The notes beneath the pieces are model-generated. The model did not search any database, was not told the origin of the DNA, and saw only the letters and a program-made list of their open reading frames with translations. Positions 2,818-62,958 of a stretch of DNA of 64,000 bases are shown piece after piece. The translations under genes and the position numbers were made by a program. Origin of the DNA: a virus. Numbering within the stretch: position 1 is the stretch's first letter; every line of letters begins with the position of its first letter. The stretch lies in the IMG/VR virus record IMGVR_UViG_3300045988_096839; one strand, 5' to 3'.

Positions 2818-5800
2818 TTAATTCTTTTTAGCCAAAAAGTCGAACTCATATTGAATATTCTCTAAACGACTAAGCTGTCTATAGATAGGAATCATTTGTC
2901 CAATAGAATATAACAATTTATTTTCCCCATCATTTTTACCAGTAGTATATACATCTGTAGGATGCCATAATCGGTCATACAATCGACCTAAATTATCCAC
3001 AGCAGACATAACTGGAAACGGATTCTGAATAATCTGTGTAAATGACCAAGGATTAAAATAAAATGAAAAATCGGTATAAACACGATATAATTGATAAGCT
3101 ATGTTCATATAAACAATATCAATACCTTCATCGTCATCACCTTCAGCCAATCCTCTAAATACATTAGATAATACATAAGCTGATATAACAAGTATCAATT
3201 CTGTAATTGATTTTTTCAAATTATTTTTTTCATCGGTTGTTAACTAATTCCATCTTAAAGCAGTACGTTTATCTCTATCCAATTGTTTACCTAAAGCAAT
3301 TTTGATATTATCAATAGCAGGATTATAAAACATTTCTTTACTTATTCTAAGTAATGTACTGTGATATCCTTCAATCCATTCACCACGAATATTATCGTAA
3401 TATCGTTTGCTAAAACGTCTTTGGAATGAAGTATAAATCCATTTACGGAACATAAGTAATAATTTACCCCATATGTACTATTGTATAGCAACAGCCCATC
3501 TACTATTATAGTTACCGTGCATACCCATTAAAGTAGATCTTACTCCCATACTGAACTCATTCATTCTTTTTTCATCAAAATTGGCTACTTTATCGTCTAC
3601 AACTAATTCTCCGTTTTTATTAAAACTAAGATAATCAATCATACTACCTAACTCATTACCATTTTTATCTATAGCTTTTAATTTGTATAAAGCTGCTAAT
3701 AAAAATCTTGTTTGAGTTAATCTTTCACCAATATTAGTAGTCCAGTAAGCAGCATCTGTAGTAAATAGTCTTTGTACTCCTTTTGCTCTTAAATTAGGAT
3801 CTCCTGCTTCATAAATACCAAACCAATCCACTAATTGATTTACAAAATCTTCTGGTACTCTTCTACCAATATCAGCTAACATACTACCTGATATAAGATG
3901 TTGCCCAAACAATTTACTAGCTTTTAACATCGATTTATGGTCTATCCAACGACTACCAAAAGCTTCAACAAACTGATTTAATTCTGCAACAGTTAAGTTA
4001 TTAATCATACTGATGTAGTTGACACCCATAACACGCATAGAATAATATTTCATTATTGTTTTGGCAAGTTTATCTACAGATATGTTACCAATTTCGGTAT
4101 TAGTACGAATTTGATTACCGTAGAACACCTGATCCAACCATGAAGCAAATAATTTATATGTGTTTTCAGATTTGGTAACAGCTTTTTCTTGTTTACCTTG
4201 TAATTTACTTAGGATTGAAACATTTTGTGTTTCAGTAGATCTATTCTTCAATATTTCTGCTGTCATTAACATAAAATCTTCAATCTAAAGTTTTGCTTGA
4301 TGCTCTAATGCGCTGTGTAACCATCTTGCATAAATAGTAGGTAAATCAAATGATTGTAAATCCAAATTCAATCTTTGATTATAAAACAAAGGAATTTGAT
4401 TTACTACGTTACCATTCATATCGGTAAATACTTGTCCAGTCATAGCATCATCTTCTACTAGCATAGAAGCTTCTTTTGCATACTGAACAACTCCGTCTTT
4501 AACACCTTTTACACCATCTTCTGATACTCTTTCTACAAATTCTTTACGTATACCAGGTAATCGATAATTCAATTGTAATCTTGAAGATACACCTTTATCA
4601 CCAATATCATTAAGTTGTTTAAACATCTCCCATAATCGATATTTTACATCATTACTTTGTTTTAATTTCTATAAATTATCATATTTCTTATTAGGATATT
4701 TTGAACTGTTTATAACACGATATTGTTCTAACAAATCATCATATGCTTCATTTATACGATCGAACTGTTCCAGACTAATGATATTTTTATCTCTAAAATA
4801 TTTCCAAGATTTCTTATCTTTACCTTCTGCTCTTATATTCTTTAGTATTTTATTTTTATCACTGTCTTTTAAGTCTGATACTATTTCTTTAACAGCTTGT
4901 TCAAATTCAAACAACAATCCTTCTTTATCAATAATTGGCGCATTTTCGTCATACCATTTTTCAATGGCTTCTTGTCTCTACTAAAAAGTAAGTGAATGGT
5001 CGTTGTTTAATTCCGTGAACATTTTTCTTCGAGCTACTACAAAAGAGTTAGGCACCTCATTAACAAGATATGCTTGACCATCTACGATTTCGATCATATC
5101 GTCGTATAACTTTCTATGATCTGACCAGTTACCACCTTTATATTTTTTCTCATATTCGTCAGTCAATTTTATCATTTGACGAACTAATACTTGATATTTA
5201 TGATCAGCCTGTTGTGTTTTCTCATCAAATATTTTTACGGCTGCTTGAACAAATGGATCTCTTGCTTGAAAAACATTACCAATATTTGCAGCAATTGTAC
5301 TACATTCAAATATATCATCGGCAACTCGTTTCTGACGATTCAACCACGTTGCAGTCTCCTCATCAATTTTATCACGTATTTCTTCTATTTTATTATCGAC
5401 CCATTTTTTCATATCTTTTTCATCTACTCGACGATTATTTTCTTTATATTGCCTTTCGAACTCTAATCGATAATTTGCTTCTATGTTTTTAACATAAGGT
5501 GTTACTGCGTCCATATATAATCTTGAACCAATATCCTTATACGATGATATTATAGATCTTTGTAAAGTAGTTACCTCTTTGATAGAATCTGTTAATGTTT
5601 CGTATTCTTCTTCTGTAAAGAATGATTTAAATCTCTAAACGAAACCAGCAATATCATCAACCATATTAAACGATAAAGCCAAATCTCGATAGTTTCTAAG
5701 ATATACCAAATCCCATGTTACTGGTTCAGCATTTCTTTTACTTTCTTGAGTGTATTTTCTATCTATTTGTTTATATACTCTAGATAATTGGTCTATAGCA

Positions 5801-60894: not shown

Positions 60895-62958
60895 TTAATT
60901 AGTAAATGTATATACATTATCATCGTTAAACTTTACTGGACTTTCGTCATCAAACCAATTTTGCGCAAATATTGGTCCATCAAAAAGTAAACGACTCTTG
61001 TTTTCTTTTTCTTTTTCTTTTACTACTACATTAAATAATTGTTCACGATAAATCATTACCTACATTAGAGCCATGACTCTATCGGTATTTATTATATCGT
61101 TGTATGCAATTAATTCCTCTAATAGTGGTTCAGATAGTATGTTGTATAAGTTCTTTTTACCATCAGCATTTATATCATTCAACCAGTCTTTTATTAATCC
61201 TTCACCCCAAGCTTTAATTGATTTGTTCATATGGCAACCTTTCTTTCTCTATACTTTAGAGTTACCAACAATATCATTGATTATATCTGGTTGATCTGCT
61301 AGTAAATAATCACAATGCTTATTAGCAAAGTAAACGAATAAACCTTTATTCTGATTTTCATACATTGCTCTGGCATTATAGTATATCAACAACTTACGAA
61401 TATTTTCGTAGAAGTCATCTGCTGCTTGAGGTCTACCAGTATATTCTGCAACAATTATATCTGAATAAGATTCTATATTCTATATTCTTTTATATATGAT
61501 ACACGAACCTAATGAATTTGTTCCTGACTAATCATGGTCATATGGGTCAATTCCTGCAATATATAAACCAAATGGTGCATCTTTCATAGGATGTTCCCAT
61601 ATAACTATAGAACCAGTAGGATCATCATCTTTATTTAGAGGATAATGTGTAATATCTCCTGTCTTTTTAATTACCCAACTAATATTTCCATCAGGTGTTT
61701 GTACTAAATCACCTATTTGTTTATGATTCTATAGCTGTTTATTTGTACGTATTCTAGCCAACTATTCCTATAGCTCTTTCTTAGGAAATATGTTTCCTCC
61801 AAATTCCAAACAAGCTTCTGCTGGAGTAATACATCTTTCACAAACGTATCTATCTACTGCTACTGAATTAGTAGCATTTTGTATCATTTCTTTACGTTGT
61901 TCTAATATAAAATCTAGAGAAGGTTTACGTAATGTATTACCATCATTATCCATGTAAATACGATTACCTTTATCATCTCTAATATCCATATTAGCATACT
62001 ATGGTATAAAGAATCCACATGTACTAGTTACTGCATTTTCATCCCATATATTCTATAATTCTATACAGTTATATCCTTTTGGTTTATAGAACATATCTTT
62101 TAATGTAGCAAAGTTTGATTCTTCATCTCCACCAGTACCAAATGCTATCATAGTACCAAATGCTATACTATCGACTTCGACAGACGGTCTAGCAATTTGC
62201 CATGCTGCGCCTAATTCTTTAAATGAACCAGCTTCTTCAAATAAGATTAGTTTTGCTTTTTTACCACGGACTATATCAGGATTATCCTTAAGAGTAACAC
62301 CAATTATTTCTGATTTATATCCTAATTCTACTTCATTACCAAATTCATCTTTAGTAAAGAATCCAGCTCTTTTACGCATTGCTGTATTAACAGATCTCTT
62401 CTTACCCCATGCAGTATTCTTATCGATAAAGTCCATATAATCCCATGCTTTAGTAAGAATGCCATCGTCTGTTAAGTATTGTTTATTTGAAGCATACACA
62501 TAAGATTTAGAATTAGGAATAAGGTAGTAATTACGACATAACATAGAACCACCTTTATAAGAATATCCTTTACGTCTACTTTTAAGTACACATAAATGCT
62601 TACCTGATTCCTCAGCATCCTAGATGGTTTGAAAATAAAAATAGTCGTAATCCCAGAAATCAGGGAATGCGACTTCCTAGACAGTCACGATTTTATCTTT
62701 ACCATGTCTGTCTTTTATATTCTTATTTACAGATCTATTAATAGGACAAAAGTTTAAATAGAAATAATTATAACCACTAATCCAATCTCCATCTTCTGCT
62801 GTATATCCTTCCAAACATCTACGTTTCTATTCATCCCAGTAAGAGAAGTATTCTGAAGTATTAGATGCATAATTACAGTATTTACCTGTCTATTCAAACG
62901 TAATAGCCGGCTATCTAAATTTATTACTGTCTATTATTTTTTTATTAAAATCTACCAT
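60895..62958 (-). CDS. terL: terminase large subunit, 687 aa, 14 in-frame TAG
   Basis: ORFs 61768..61989 and 62053..62544 plus unlisted fragments are in one frame; 60895-61767, 61990-62052 and 62545-62958 were walked, TAG only. ATPase-type motifs VLKSRRKGYSYKGG (Walker A-like) and AKLILFEEAG (Walker B-like) are followed by a nuclease-type C-terminal half (IAFGTGGDEE...). ATG 62956-62958, TAA 60895-60897. Confidence 0.8.

What the first reader, a model, noticed from the sequence alone, without database searches (positions are those of the whole stretch)
2818..62958. The whole late/structural strand is written in a code where TAG is a sense codon
Minus-strand ORF fragments that share a frame are separated only by cta (TAG) triplets. 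I walked the larger gaps codon by codon: 6103-7053, 17832-18308, 18525-18905, 19488-20177, 27742-28044, 30151-30717, 43023-45560, 57242-57841 and 60895-61767. I met TAG repeatedly and never TAA or TGA. Merging the fragments gives 43 tightly packed minus-strand genes with ATGA/TAATG overlaps or 1-15 nt spacers. Every one ends in TAA or TGA, and none needs TAG as a terminator. My hand count is about 184 sense TAGs in 29 genes. Three genes (32228..32698, 32695..33336, 33469..33924) are completely invisible to a standard-code ORF caller. From memory, TAG recoding is documented for some crAss-like and other gut phages (Ivanova 2014; Yutin 2021; Borges 2022), so the phenomenon is not new. This window is a very clean, fully resolvable example of it.
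Basis: seen in the sequence. Interest (0 to 1): 0.85.

Follow-up and report, generated by a model that had tools for sequence, protein, structure and literature searches.

The report
Phage genes reading TAG as glutamine
This is the roughly 60-kb structural, lysis and virion-polymerase gene block of a human-gut crAss-like phage in which the stop codon TAG encodes glutamine, read by a phage suppressor tRNA encoded at the head of the block; it is real and very clean, but it is a well-documented feature ("genetic code 15") of this phage family.

Summary
On the minus strand from 2818 to 62958, treating TAG as sense raises ORF coverage from 0.67 to 0.95 and gives 98% coding density. Treating TGA or TAA as sense does not. 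The result is 39-41 tightly packed genes containing 186-189 in-frame TAGs in 29 genes and no in-frame TAA or TGA. One ORF is 5047 aa long with 32 TAGs.

TAG means glutamine. In alignments to the standard-code relative cr1_1, 33% of 103 TAG columns are Gln. That matches CAA/CAG columns (31%), and the Gln model beats the next-best amino acid by 53 log-likelihood units. In 81 TerL relatives and four near-identical strains, TAG interchanges only with CAA or CAG at conserved Gln sites.

A tRNA(CUA) with a tRNA-Gln-type body lies at 63268..63342, just outside the finding's range and directly upstream of TerL. Nineteen same-strand genes upstream of it and 18 replication genes on the other strand contain essentially no TAG, either as sense or as stop. 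So the recoded unit is a block that starts at the tRNA, not a whole strand.

All of this has been published for Delta-group crAss-like phages (Suoliviridae), including proteomic proof. The finding is already known.

The parts
2818..62958 (-). TAG-recoded late block: 39-41 genes for packaging, head, tail, lysis and virion cargo/RNA polymerase, 98.2% coding when TAG is read as sense
63268..63342 (-). Suppressor tRNA with anticodon CUA. It has a tRNA-Gln-type body (U1, the GUGU/GCAC D stem, A73, encoded CCA) and a one-nucleotide bulge in the T stem. ARAGORN labels it 'tRNA-Pyl' from the anticodon alone.
   Evidence: (Rfam tRNA 32.8 bits, threshold 29)
62975..63008 (-). Terminator-like hairpin followed by a U-run, between the tRNA and the TerL start codon
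   Evidence: free energy -18.1 kcal/mol, z = -4.2; missed by the simple terminator scan because of an internal mismatch
63091..63159 (-). Degenerate tRNA-like element with an intact acceptor stem and T arm but a short, aberrant middle. It sits where many relatives carry a tRNA-Met(CAU).
   Evidence: ARAGORN finds it only at the relaxed threshold; no Rfam tRNA hit
60895..62958 (-). Terminase large subunit, 687 aa, 14 TAGs (14 of its 27 Gln codons)
   Evidence: phrog_6681, E = 4e-155, one stretch covering residues 10-659
58397..60892 (-). Portal protein, 831 aa, 7 TAGs
   Evidence: phrog_6547, E = 3e-172, residues 5-804
57970..58320 (-). Small protease-family protein, 116 aa, 1 TAG
   Evidence: (phrog_15610)
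53689..55155 (-). Major capsid protein, 488 aa, 1 TAG
   Evidence: phrog_11589, E = 4e-135; PF23898 Crass_capsid
52535..53617 (-). GIY-YIG homing endonuclease, 360 aa, no TAG
36909..37391 (-). Holin, 160 aa, 3 of its 4 Gln codons are TAG
   Evidence: PF05105
34788..35471 (-). HNH endonuclease, 227 aa, no TAG
   Evidence: (PF13392)
33469..33933 (-). Conserved 154-aa gene with 6 TAGs, not detectable under the standard code
   Evidence: (52.8% identity to cr1_1)
32695..33336 (-). Tail ring protein 2, 213 aa, 4 TAGs, not detectable under the standard code
   Evidence: PF25702, E = 9e-71, profile positions 1-209 of 210
32228..32698 (-). Conserved 156-aa gene in which all 8 Gln codons are TAG. Its homologue in cr1_1 is annotated as a histone-like DNA-binding protein.
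   Evidence: (binomial p = 3e-6)
31320..32225 (-). Tail ring protein 1, 301 aa, 5 TAGs
   Evidence: PF24228, E = 2e-106
27199..31329 (-). 1376-aa protein with 17 TAGs. Its homologue in cr1_1 is annotated 'putative stabilization protein'.
8199..23342 (-). Giant 5047-aa ORF with 32 TAGs. It carries a DFDID (DxDxD) motif at residue 4120 and an HExxH motif. It is syntenic with a single stop-free 4551-aa ORF in the standard-code relative cr1_1.
   Evidence: no Pfam hit for its C-terminal half
2818..8196 (-). 1792-aa ORF with 22 TAGs, the last gene of the block. It is the homologue of a 2007-aa ORF in cr1_1.
63..2737 (+). End of the convergent replication module: a 90-aa protein, a metallophosphatase, a DUF3799/exonuclease-like protein and a 172-aa protein. 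None contains TAG in frame and none stops with TAG.
63475..63889 (-). Last two genes (88 and 48 aa) of the TAG-free same-strand block upstream of the tRNA

Best explanation
The window is about two thirds of a 97.4-kb crAss-like phage genome (Crassvirales, Suoliviridae-like, the former 'Delta' group). Its late module, from TerL to the virion cargo/RNA-polymerase giants, is written in genetic code 15: TAG encodes glutamine and only TAA and TGA terminate.

Shown here:
- TAG is an in-frame sense codon that behaves exactly like CAA and CAG.
- It supplies 20.7% of the Gln codons in the block.
- A phage tRNA(CUA) with a tRNA-Gln-type body is encoded immediately upstream of TerL and is separated from it by a terminator-like hairpin.
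- The replication module and the same-strand early/middle block upstream of the tRNA avoid TAG completely, both as sense and as stop, so they read the same in either code.

Inferred, following the published model:
- Early genes are translated by the unmodified standard-code host.
- The suppressor tRNA is then made, probably from the upstream TAG-free transcription unit, and is charged with Gln by the host.
- Only then can late mRNAs be translated full length. Their first TAG has a median position at codon 31.
- Recoding would therefore gate structural and lysis proteins to late infection.

How host release factor 1 is outcompeted at 32 consecutive TAGs in one ORF is not explained by anything in the window.
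For: Code test.

Amino-acid identity:
- 34 of 106 TAG-aligned residues in standard-code cr1_1 are Gln, against a 3.2% background.
- the Gln model beats Glu by 53.4 log-likelihood units. TAG columns are 33% Gln and CAA/CAG columns are 31% Gln.
- five TerL columns contain only CAA, CAG or TAG across 81 relatives.
- between strains 96-98% identical, all 4 variable TAG sites toggle to CAG or CAA.

Full-length homology across TAGs. The giant ORF corresponds to one uninterrupted 4551-aa ORF in a standard-code relative.

tRNA.
- 102 of 115 cellular tRNAs sharing its D arm are tRNA-Gln.
- The bulged T-stem model gives 11-12 of 12 pairs, with covariation among relatives.

Block boundary:
- 0 TAG in 2299 codons (68 Gln codons, P = 1e-7) upstream on the same strand.
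- 0-2 TAG in 3849 codons (115 Gln codons, P = 3e-12) in the replication module.
- None of those 37 genes stops with TAG.
- Terminator-like hairpin between the tRNA and TerL.

Clade-wide: 80 of 80 closest TerL relatives are recoded and 57 carry a tRNA(CUA) upstream of TerL. The GenBank relatives cr6_1 and cr53_1 are the same.

Not an artefact: the sequence is 100% identical to an independent public contig, and near-identical strains occur in other samples.

Literature: PMC7886860, PMC9523058 (LC-MS/MS peptides with Gln at TAG in a 94-kb crAss-like phage), 10.1101/2021.08.26.457843.
Against: - There is no direct protein or tRNA-charging evidence for this genome.
- The tRNA has an unusual T arm: a bulge plus a G-G mismatch. 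It scores only 32.8 bits against Rfam's tRNA model (threshold 29), and ViennaRNA gives no better-than-shuffle stability. Its function is inferred from conservation.
- No release factor, aminoacyl-tRNA synthetase or other code-change gene was seen in the roughly 84 kb examined. About 14 kb of the genome was not seen.
- The timing model is inferred from gene content and layout only.
- The nucleotide context after TAG differs little from that after CAA/CAG (p = 0.03), so there is no evidence of special suppression contexts.
Confidence: 0.95

Rival explanations
1. TAG still terminates. The late genes would be pseudogenised or fragmented, or the TAGs would be sequencing or assembly errors.
For: Under the standard code the block breaks into many short ORFs.
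Against: - A 15-kb frame free of TAA and TGA has a chance probability of about 1e-215.
- Homology runs across TAGs.
- TAG sites are conserved or swap only with Gln codons.
- Identical sequence occurs in independent assemblies.
- 80 of 80 relatives show the same pattern.
Confidence: 0.005
2. TAG encodes pyrrolysine, as ARAGORN's label suggests, or some amino acid other than glutamine.
For: ARAGORN names the tRNA 'tRNA-Pyl'. Some relatives carry a 91-nt tRNA(CUA) with a long variable arm.
Against: - The label follows from the anticodon alone.
- The tRNA has G18G19, a T-psi-C loop and a tRNA-Gln D arm. These are not tRNA-Pyl features (established knowledge).
- The Gln substitution model wins by 53 log-likelihood units.
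- Several alignment columns contain only TAG, CAA or CAG.
- Relatives with the 91-nt tRNA also place TAG at invariant Gln sites.
- No pyl biosynthesis genes appear among the Pfam annotations of the examined parts.
Confidence: 0.01
3. The suppressor is not the phage tRNA. Decoding would rely on a host-encoded suppressor or a host that already reads TAG as sense, and the phage tRNA would be dispensable or inactive.
For: - The T arm is non-canonical.
- 23 of 80 recoded relatives show no detectable tRNA(CUA) in the 6 kb upstream of TerL.
- The literature also reports recoded phages without a detectable suppressor.
Against: - The tRNA and its bulge are conserved with compensatory changes across diverged relatives.
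- Its position at the head of the recoded block is conserved.
- Early modules avoid TAG completely, which makes sense only if the cell starts in the standard code.
- At least three 'tRNA-less' relatives do carry the gene, split by an insert.
- Sister phages cr1_1 and cr55_1 use TAG as a stop.
Confidence: 0.04

Closest known systems
TAG-to-Gln ('genetic code 15') late-gene recoding in Delta-group crAss-like phages (Suoliviridae), for example cr6_1 (NC_055894) and cr53_1 (NC_055889); Yutin et al. 2021, PMC7886860
   Same: The gene order is the same. TerL, portal, tail and other late genes carry in-frame TAGs, and a tRNA(CUA), annotated tRNA-Gln, sits directly upstream of TerL. MCP nucleotide identity is 74-80%.
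   Different: This is a different species or genus-level lineage. The suppressor tRNA belongs to a different sequence family, with a bulged T stem. The window's TerL has no intein, unlike cr53_1 and some sister strains.
The 94-kb and 191-kb crAss-like phages validated by metaproteomics; Peters et al. 2022, PMC9523058
   Same: Code 15 in structural genes, code-11-compatible early genes and suppressor tRNAs. Peptides directly show Gln at TAG.
   Different: No proteomic data exist for this genome, and sequence relatedness to those two genomes was not tested.
The model that stop-codon recoding regulates late and lysis genes; Borges et al., 10.1101/2021.08.26.457843
   Same: In crAss-like phages there is a single alternatively coded structural and lysis unit, standard-code replication genes, prior loss of TAG as a stop, and lysis-related genes rich in TAG. 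In the window the holin has 3 of 4 Gln codons as TAG.
   Different: The Jade phages in that paper carry a 'code change module' of tRNA, aminoacyl-tRNA synthetase and release factor. Only the tRNA is seen here.
Standard-code sister phages cr1_1 and cr55_1 (Suoliviridae, Boorivirinae)
   Same: The late module is collinear, including the giant ORFs of 4551 aa and 2007 aa. Protein identity is 30-75%.
   Different: They have no in-frame TAG, their portal gene stops with TAG, and there is no tRNA(CUA) upstream of TerL.
Classical amber suppressors derived from tRNA-Gln (E. coli supE/glnV44; from established knowledge)
   Same: A tRNA-Gln body whose anticodon CUG is changed by one base to CUA, inserting Gln at UAG.
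   Different: supE is a weak cellular suppressor that competes with RF1. Here suppression must be efficient enough to pass 32 TAGs in one ORF, and the tRNA is phage-encoded with an atypical T stem.

Membership tests
Phage genetic code 15 (TAG to Gln) late-gene recoding | In-frame TAGs, but no TAA or TGA, in conserved late genes; ORFs restored when TAG is read as sense | tested here: met
Phage genetic code 15 (TAG to Gln) late-gene recoding | TAG positions correspond to glutamine in homologues | tested here: met
Phage genetic code 15 (TAG to Gln) late-gene recoding | Phage-encoded suppressor tRNA with anticodon CUA | tested here: met
   tRNA-Gln-type body
Phage genetic code 15 (TAG to Gln) late-gene recoding | Early and replication genes are compatible with the standard code (block structure) | tested here: met
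Phage genetic code 15 (TAG to Gln) late-gene recoding | Peptides with Gln at TAG, and charging of the tRNA with Gln | not testable with these tools
   Shown only for other crAss-like phages (PMC9523058)
Crassvirales / Suoliviridae (Delta group) | crAss-type MCP, TerL, portal and tail ring proteins, and the conserved structural-block gene order | tested here: met
   PF23898 Crass_capsid; CrAss_Ring_1 and CrAss_Ring_2
Crassvirales / Suoliviridae (Delta group) | Phylogenetic placement within the family (TerL/MCP tree or ICTV demarcation criteria) | not tested
   Only best-hit similarity: MCP 74-80% nucleotide identity to Suoliviridae genera. No tree was built.
Pyrrolysine decoding system | tRNA-Pyl architecture (short D loop without GG, 3-nt variable loop, no T-psi-C) plus pylS and pylBCD genes | tested here: not met
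   The tRNA has G18G19, a T-psi-C loop and a 4-nt variable region. No such genes appear among the Pfam annotations of the parts seen. TAG columns are Gln.
tRNA-Gln-derived amber suppressor | A tRNA body of Gln type, with an anticodon one base away from CUG or UUG | tested here: met
   102 of 115 cellular tRNAs with the same D arm are tRNA-Gln(UUG/CUG), many from Bacteroidales and with the same U1...A73 layout

The most novel reading that the evidence does not exclude
The code itself is not new. What may be under-described is the suppressor-tRNA locus at the head of the recoded block. Among phages whose TerL proteins are 71-97% identical to the window's, the slot upstream of TerL holds at least five tRNA(CUA) sequence families that do not look related to one another:
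- a canonical type;
- a type with a Gln-like acceptor stem;
- the window's type, with a conserved bulge in the T stem;
- a 91-nt type with a long variable arm;
- in three relatives, a tRNA split inside the anticodon by a 1-kb insert that carries an HNH endonuclease gene and obeys group-I-like splice-site rules.

If this holds up, the suppressor is a rapidly replaced and sometimes intron-gated cassette. That would explain many 'missing' suppressors in recoded phages, and it would suggest selection acting on the tRNA, for example from host anticodon nucleases.
Probability: 0.25. Interest if true: 0.45.

Novelty: already known. Interest (0 to 1): 0.2.

Why it matters
Practically, standard-code gene callers break this 60-kb block into fragments and miss whole conserved genes, such as tail ring protein 2 and an IHF-like gene. 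Recognising code 15 is therefore essential for annotating gut viromes.

Biologically, the window is a textbook example of a phage that keeps two 'dialects' in one genome and appears to switch the infected cell's code with a single tRNA. It has a sharp boundary at the tRNA/TerL junction, and TAG has been removed as a stop codon everywhere else.

It does not open a new question. It could serve as a clean test case for how 32 TAGs in one ORF are read through against host release factor 1.

Tried and rejected
- Exact-protein look-ups of the 334-aa exonuclease-like protein and the 650-aa TAG-free tail protein found nothing. The 298-aa and 88-aa proteins worked.
- The simple terminator scan found no site near TerL. 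Direct folding showed a hairpin with an internal mismatch.
- The sigma-70 promoter scan was at chance level and is in any case not suited to Bacteroidota or phage-polymerase promoters.
- The nucleotide after TAG is only marginally different from that after CAA/CAG (p = 0.03), so I make no claim about context.
- TAG-free late genes (the 650-aa 39084..41036, the scaffold-like 55201..56361, and the homing endonucleases) looked depleted per codon. After normalising by Gln content, none is individually significant (p >= 0.02). Pooling MCP, the scaffold-like gene and 49222..50208 gives 2 TAGs in 42 Gln codons, which is suggestive but was selected after the fact.
- Pfam found nothing in the C-terminal 2547 aa of the giant ORF. 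The RNA-polymerase assignment rests only on the DFDID motif and synteny.
- Rfam found no group I intron in the split tRNA of the relatives.
- ViennaRNA folding of the tRNA alone is not better than shuffled sequences. Structure support comes from the comparison with relatives.
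Full report
**What the window is.**
- The window is AT-rich (30.7% G+C).
- Its capsid region matches crAss-like phages of the family Suoliviridae (cr6_1, cr53_1 and others) at 74-80% nucleotide identity.
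- It is 100% identical to parts of a 97,444-bp public contig, logan:SRR8675875_490. Near-identical strains occur in other samples.
- The gene calls stored with that contig already give products of 1792 and 5047 aa, so a TAG-sense table was used there.

**Checking the observation.**
- I called ORFs under all four possible stop-codon sets. On the minus strand, coverage by ORFs of at least 60 aa is 0.667 under the standard code and 0.951 with TAG as sense. It is 0.689 with TGA as sense and 0.751 with TAA as sense. The plus strand shows no specific gain.
- A greedy map gives 39 genes of at least 50 aa between 2818 and 62958, plus two small ORFs, at 98.2% coding density.
- The genes contain 189 in-frame TAGs with longest starts, or 186 with conservative starts, in 29 genes. 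They contain no in-frame TAA or TGA.
- The off-frames of the same genes carry 9.3% TAA+TGA per codon. A 5047-codon frame free of both has a chance probability of about 7e-215.
- Under the standard code, the longest minus-strand ORF in 32228..33933 is 53 aa.

**The merged ORFs are real genes.**
- TerL, portal and MCP each match their PHROG profile as a single end-to-end stretch (E = 4e-155, 3e-172 and 4e-135).
- 32695..33336 (4 TAGs) is a full-length CrAss_Ring_2. 31320..32225 (5 TAGs) is CrAss_Ring_1. 36909..37391 (3 TAGs) is a holin.
- Two relatives, cr1_1 and cr55_1, use the standard code. They have no in-frame TAG, their portal gene stops with TAG, and there is no tRNA next to TerL.
- cr1_1 has the same late-gene order, including a single stop-free 4551-aa ORF where the window has its 5047-aa ORF with 32 TAGs.
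- In tblastn against cr1_1, 99 of 104 aligned TAG positions lie at least 10 columns inside an HSP, and one HSP spans 14 TAGs.

**Which amino acid.**
- At 103 TAG columns aligned to a residue in cr1_1, 33% are Gln, against a 3.2% background. The rest are mainly E, K, D and N.
- The window's CAA/CAG columns are 31% Gln, with the same pattern of substitutes.
- I used each amino acid's own substitution profile from these alignments as a model for the TAG columns. Gln beats the runner-up, Glu, by 53 log-likelihood units.
- In a codon alignment of 83 TerL genes (the window, a near-identical contig, 79 other recoded relatives and the two standard-code phages), five columns contain only CAA, CAG or TAG.
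- Among four strains 96-98% identical, all four variable TAG sites toggle to CAG or CAA.
- TAG supplies 20.7% of the Gln codons in the block, more than CAG does.

**The decoder.**
- ARAGORN and Rfam find one tRNA, at 63268..63342 on the minus strand, with anticodon CUA. It lies just outside the finding's coordinates, about 310 nt upstream of the TerL start. cr6_1 and cr53_1 carry an annotated tRNA-Gln(CUA) in the same position.
- ARAGORN's 'tRNA-Pyl' label reflects only the anticodon.
- The D arm, TGGTGTARTGGT(N)AGCAC, occurs in cellular genomes overwhelmingly in tRNA-Gln: 102 of 115 tRNA hits, many in Bacteroidales, with the same U1...A73 layout. This is a tRNA-Gln body one base away from anticodon CUG.
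- Its T arm looked defective. Comparison with relatives resolves this. A one-nucleotide bulge after position 62 gives 11-12 of 12 T-stem and acceptor-stem pairs, against 6-8 of 12 without it. Pairs covary between relatives (C-G to G-C, G.U to C-G), and the single difference in L009 falls on the bulged base.
- A hairpin followed by a U-run (free energy -18.1 kcal/mol, z = -4.2) lies between the tRNA and the TerL ATG.

**It is a block, not a strand.**
- The plus-strand genes at 63..2737 are the end of the replication module. With the adjoining 10 kb (L088), that module has 18 genes, 3849 codons and 115 Gln codons. It contains 0-2 in-frame TAGs, both in doubtful N-terminal extensions, and none of its genes stops with TAG.
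- On the same strand as the late genes, the 19 genes upstream of the tRNA (Dam, ThyX, a dGTP pyrophosphohydrolase and small ORFs) have no TAG in 2299 codons and 68 Gln codons, and no TAG stops.
- TAG is therefore a common sense codon from TerL onward. Before the tRNA it is absent in either role.
- Within the block, usage is uneven. TerL has 14 of 27 Gln codons as TAG, 32228..32698 has 8 of 8, and the giant ORF has only 32 of 271.
- TAGs are modestly skewed towards the 5' part of genes (mean relative position 0.43, KS p = 0.004). The median first TAG is at codon 31.

**Mechanism.**
- Shown: the code, the amino acid, the tRNA gene and the block layout.
- Inferred: the temporal switch, in which standard-code early genes are translated first, the suppressor tRNA is then made, and late and lysis proteins follow. 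This is the published model.
- Not explained by anything in the window: how host release factor 1 is outcompeted at 32 TAGs in one ORF. No release-factor or synthetase gene was seen in the roughly 84 kb examined.

**Comparison with what is known.**
- Yutin et al. 2021 (PMC7886860) report TAG-to-Gln recoding, mostly in late genes, with suppressor tRNAs, in many Beta, Delta and Zeta crAss-like phages.
- Borges et al. (10.1101/2021.08.26.457843) describe the single alternatively coded structural and lysis unit in crAss-like phages, standard-code replication genes, loss of TAG stops as a precursor, and a TAG bias in lysis genes.
- Peters et al. 2022 (PMC9523058) show peptides with Gln at TAG in a 94-kb crAss-like phage.
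- A 2026 preprint describes another such genus.
- All 80 closest TerL relatives in IMG/VR are recoded.
- The finding is therefore correct, clean and already known.

**Side observations** are listed separately. The most interesting is the diversity of suppressor tRNAs at this locus, including three relatives whose tRNA is split in the anticodon by an endonuclease-bearing insert.

Noticed in passing
L016 4484-5560 (also L050 and L054); relatives, not the window: The suppressor tRNA(CUA) gene is split inside the anticodon (...CUCU | about 1003 nt | AAC...). The exons are identical to the uninterrupted allele in L017. The insert follows a U, ends in G, and encodes a TAG-free 301-aa HNH endonuclease. 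This may be a group I intron in a suppressor tRNA, and it would explain 'missing' suppressors. Rfam gives no group I hit.
   Followed up: partly
L008-L087, 0.3-2 kb upstream of TerL; window 63268..63342: Phages whose TerL proteins are 71-97% identical to the window's carry at least five dissimilar tRNA(CUA) sequence families in the same slot (21 unique sequences). One is a 91-nt form with a long variable arm (L015, L058, L060-L062, L075). Those phages still place TAG at invariant Gln sites.
   Followed up: partly
window 63091..63159 (-): A degenerate tRNA-like element with a perfect 7-bp acceptor stem and a canonical T arm (GTTGG-TTCAAAT-CCAAC) but a shortened, aberrant D/anticodon region. It sits where many relatives have a tRNA-Met(CAU), so it is probably a decayed tRNA.
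   Followed up: partly
window 60895..62958 compared with L090, L092, L093 and cr53_1 (L002): TerL shows intein presence/absence polymorphism among near-identical strains. It is 687 aa in the window, 1060 aa in L090 and L092, and 1406 aa in L093 (Intein_splicing and LAGLIDADG domains). Homing-endonuclease genes also vary: a GIY-YIG gene follows the portal gene in L092 and a NUMOD1 gene does so in L093.
   Followed up: no
window 52535..53617 and 34788..35471 (-): Both homing-endonuclease genes inside the recoded block (GIY-YIG and HNH) contain no TAG, and the same is true of those in cr6_1. This fits mobile genes arriving from, or needing expression in, a standard-code context. With only 5-6 Gln codons each, it is not statistically significant.
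   Followed up: partly
window 53689..55155, 55201..56361, 49222..50208 (-): The probably most highly expressed head genes (MCP, the acidic scaffold-like protein and the 328-aa protein) together use TAG for only 2 of 42 Gln codons, against 20.7% overall. This hints that TAG is avoided where translation demand is highest. The grouping was chosen after the fact.
   Followed up: partly
window 8199..23342 (-): A 5047-aa single ORF with a DFDID (DxDxD) motif at residue 4120 and an HExxH motif near residue 2565. No Pfam family matches its C-terminal half. Only about 47% of it aligns to the 4551-aa cr1_1 homologue, at about 30% identity.
   Followed up: partly
L093 850-1398 (sister strain, outside the window): A 182-aa phage gene with a Ribosomal_L12 (L7/L12 stalk) domain lies in the TAG-free region of a sister strain. 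Peters 2022 also detected a phage ribosomal protein in the code-11 region of a recoded crAss-like phage. Any link to translation-factor recruitment or termination is untested.
   Followed up: no
L009 / L007 (IMGVR_UViG_3300045988_118021): The closest distinct relative carrying the same tRNA type sits on a 132.9-kb contig, about 35 kb longer than the usual 95-103 kb of this group.
   Followed up: no
L091 794-880 and L088 885-958 (same genome, outside the window): The genome also encodes tRNA-Leu(UAA) and tRNA-Ile(GAU) in its TAG-free parts.
   Followed up: no
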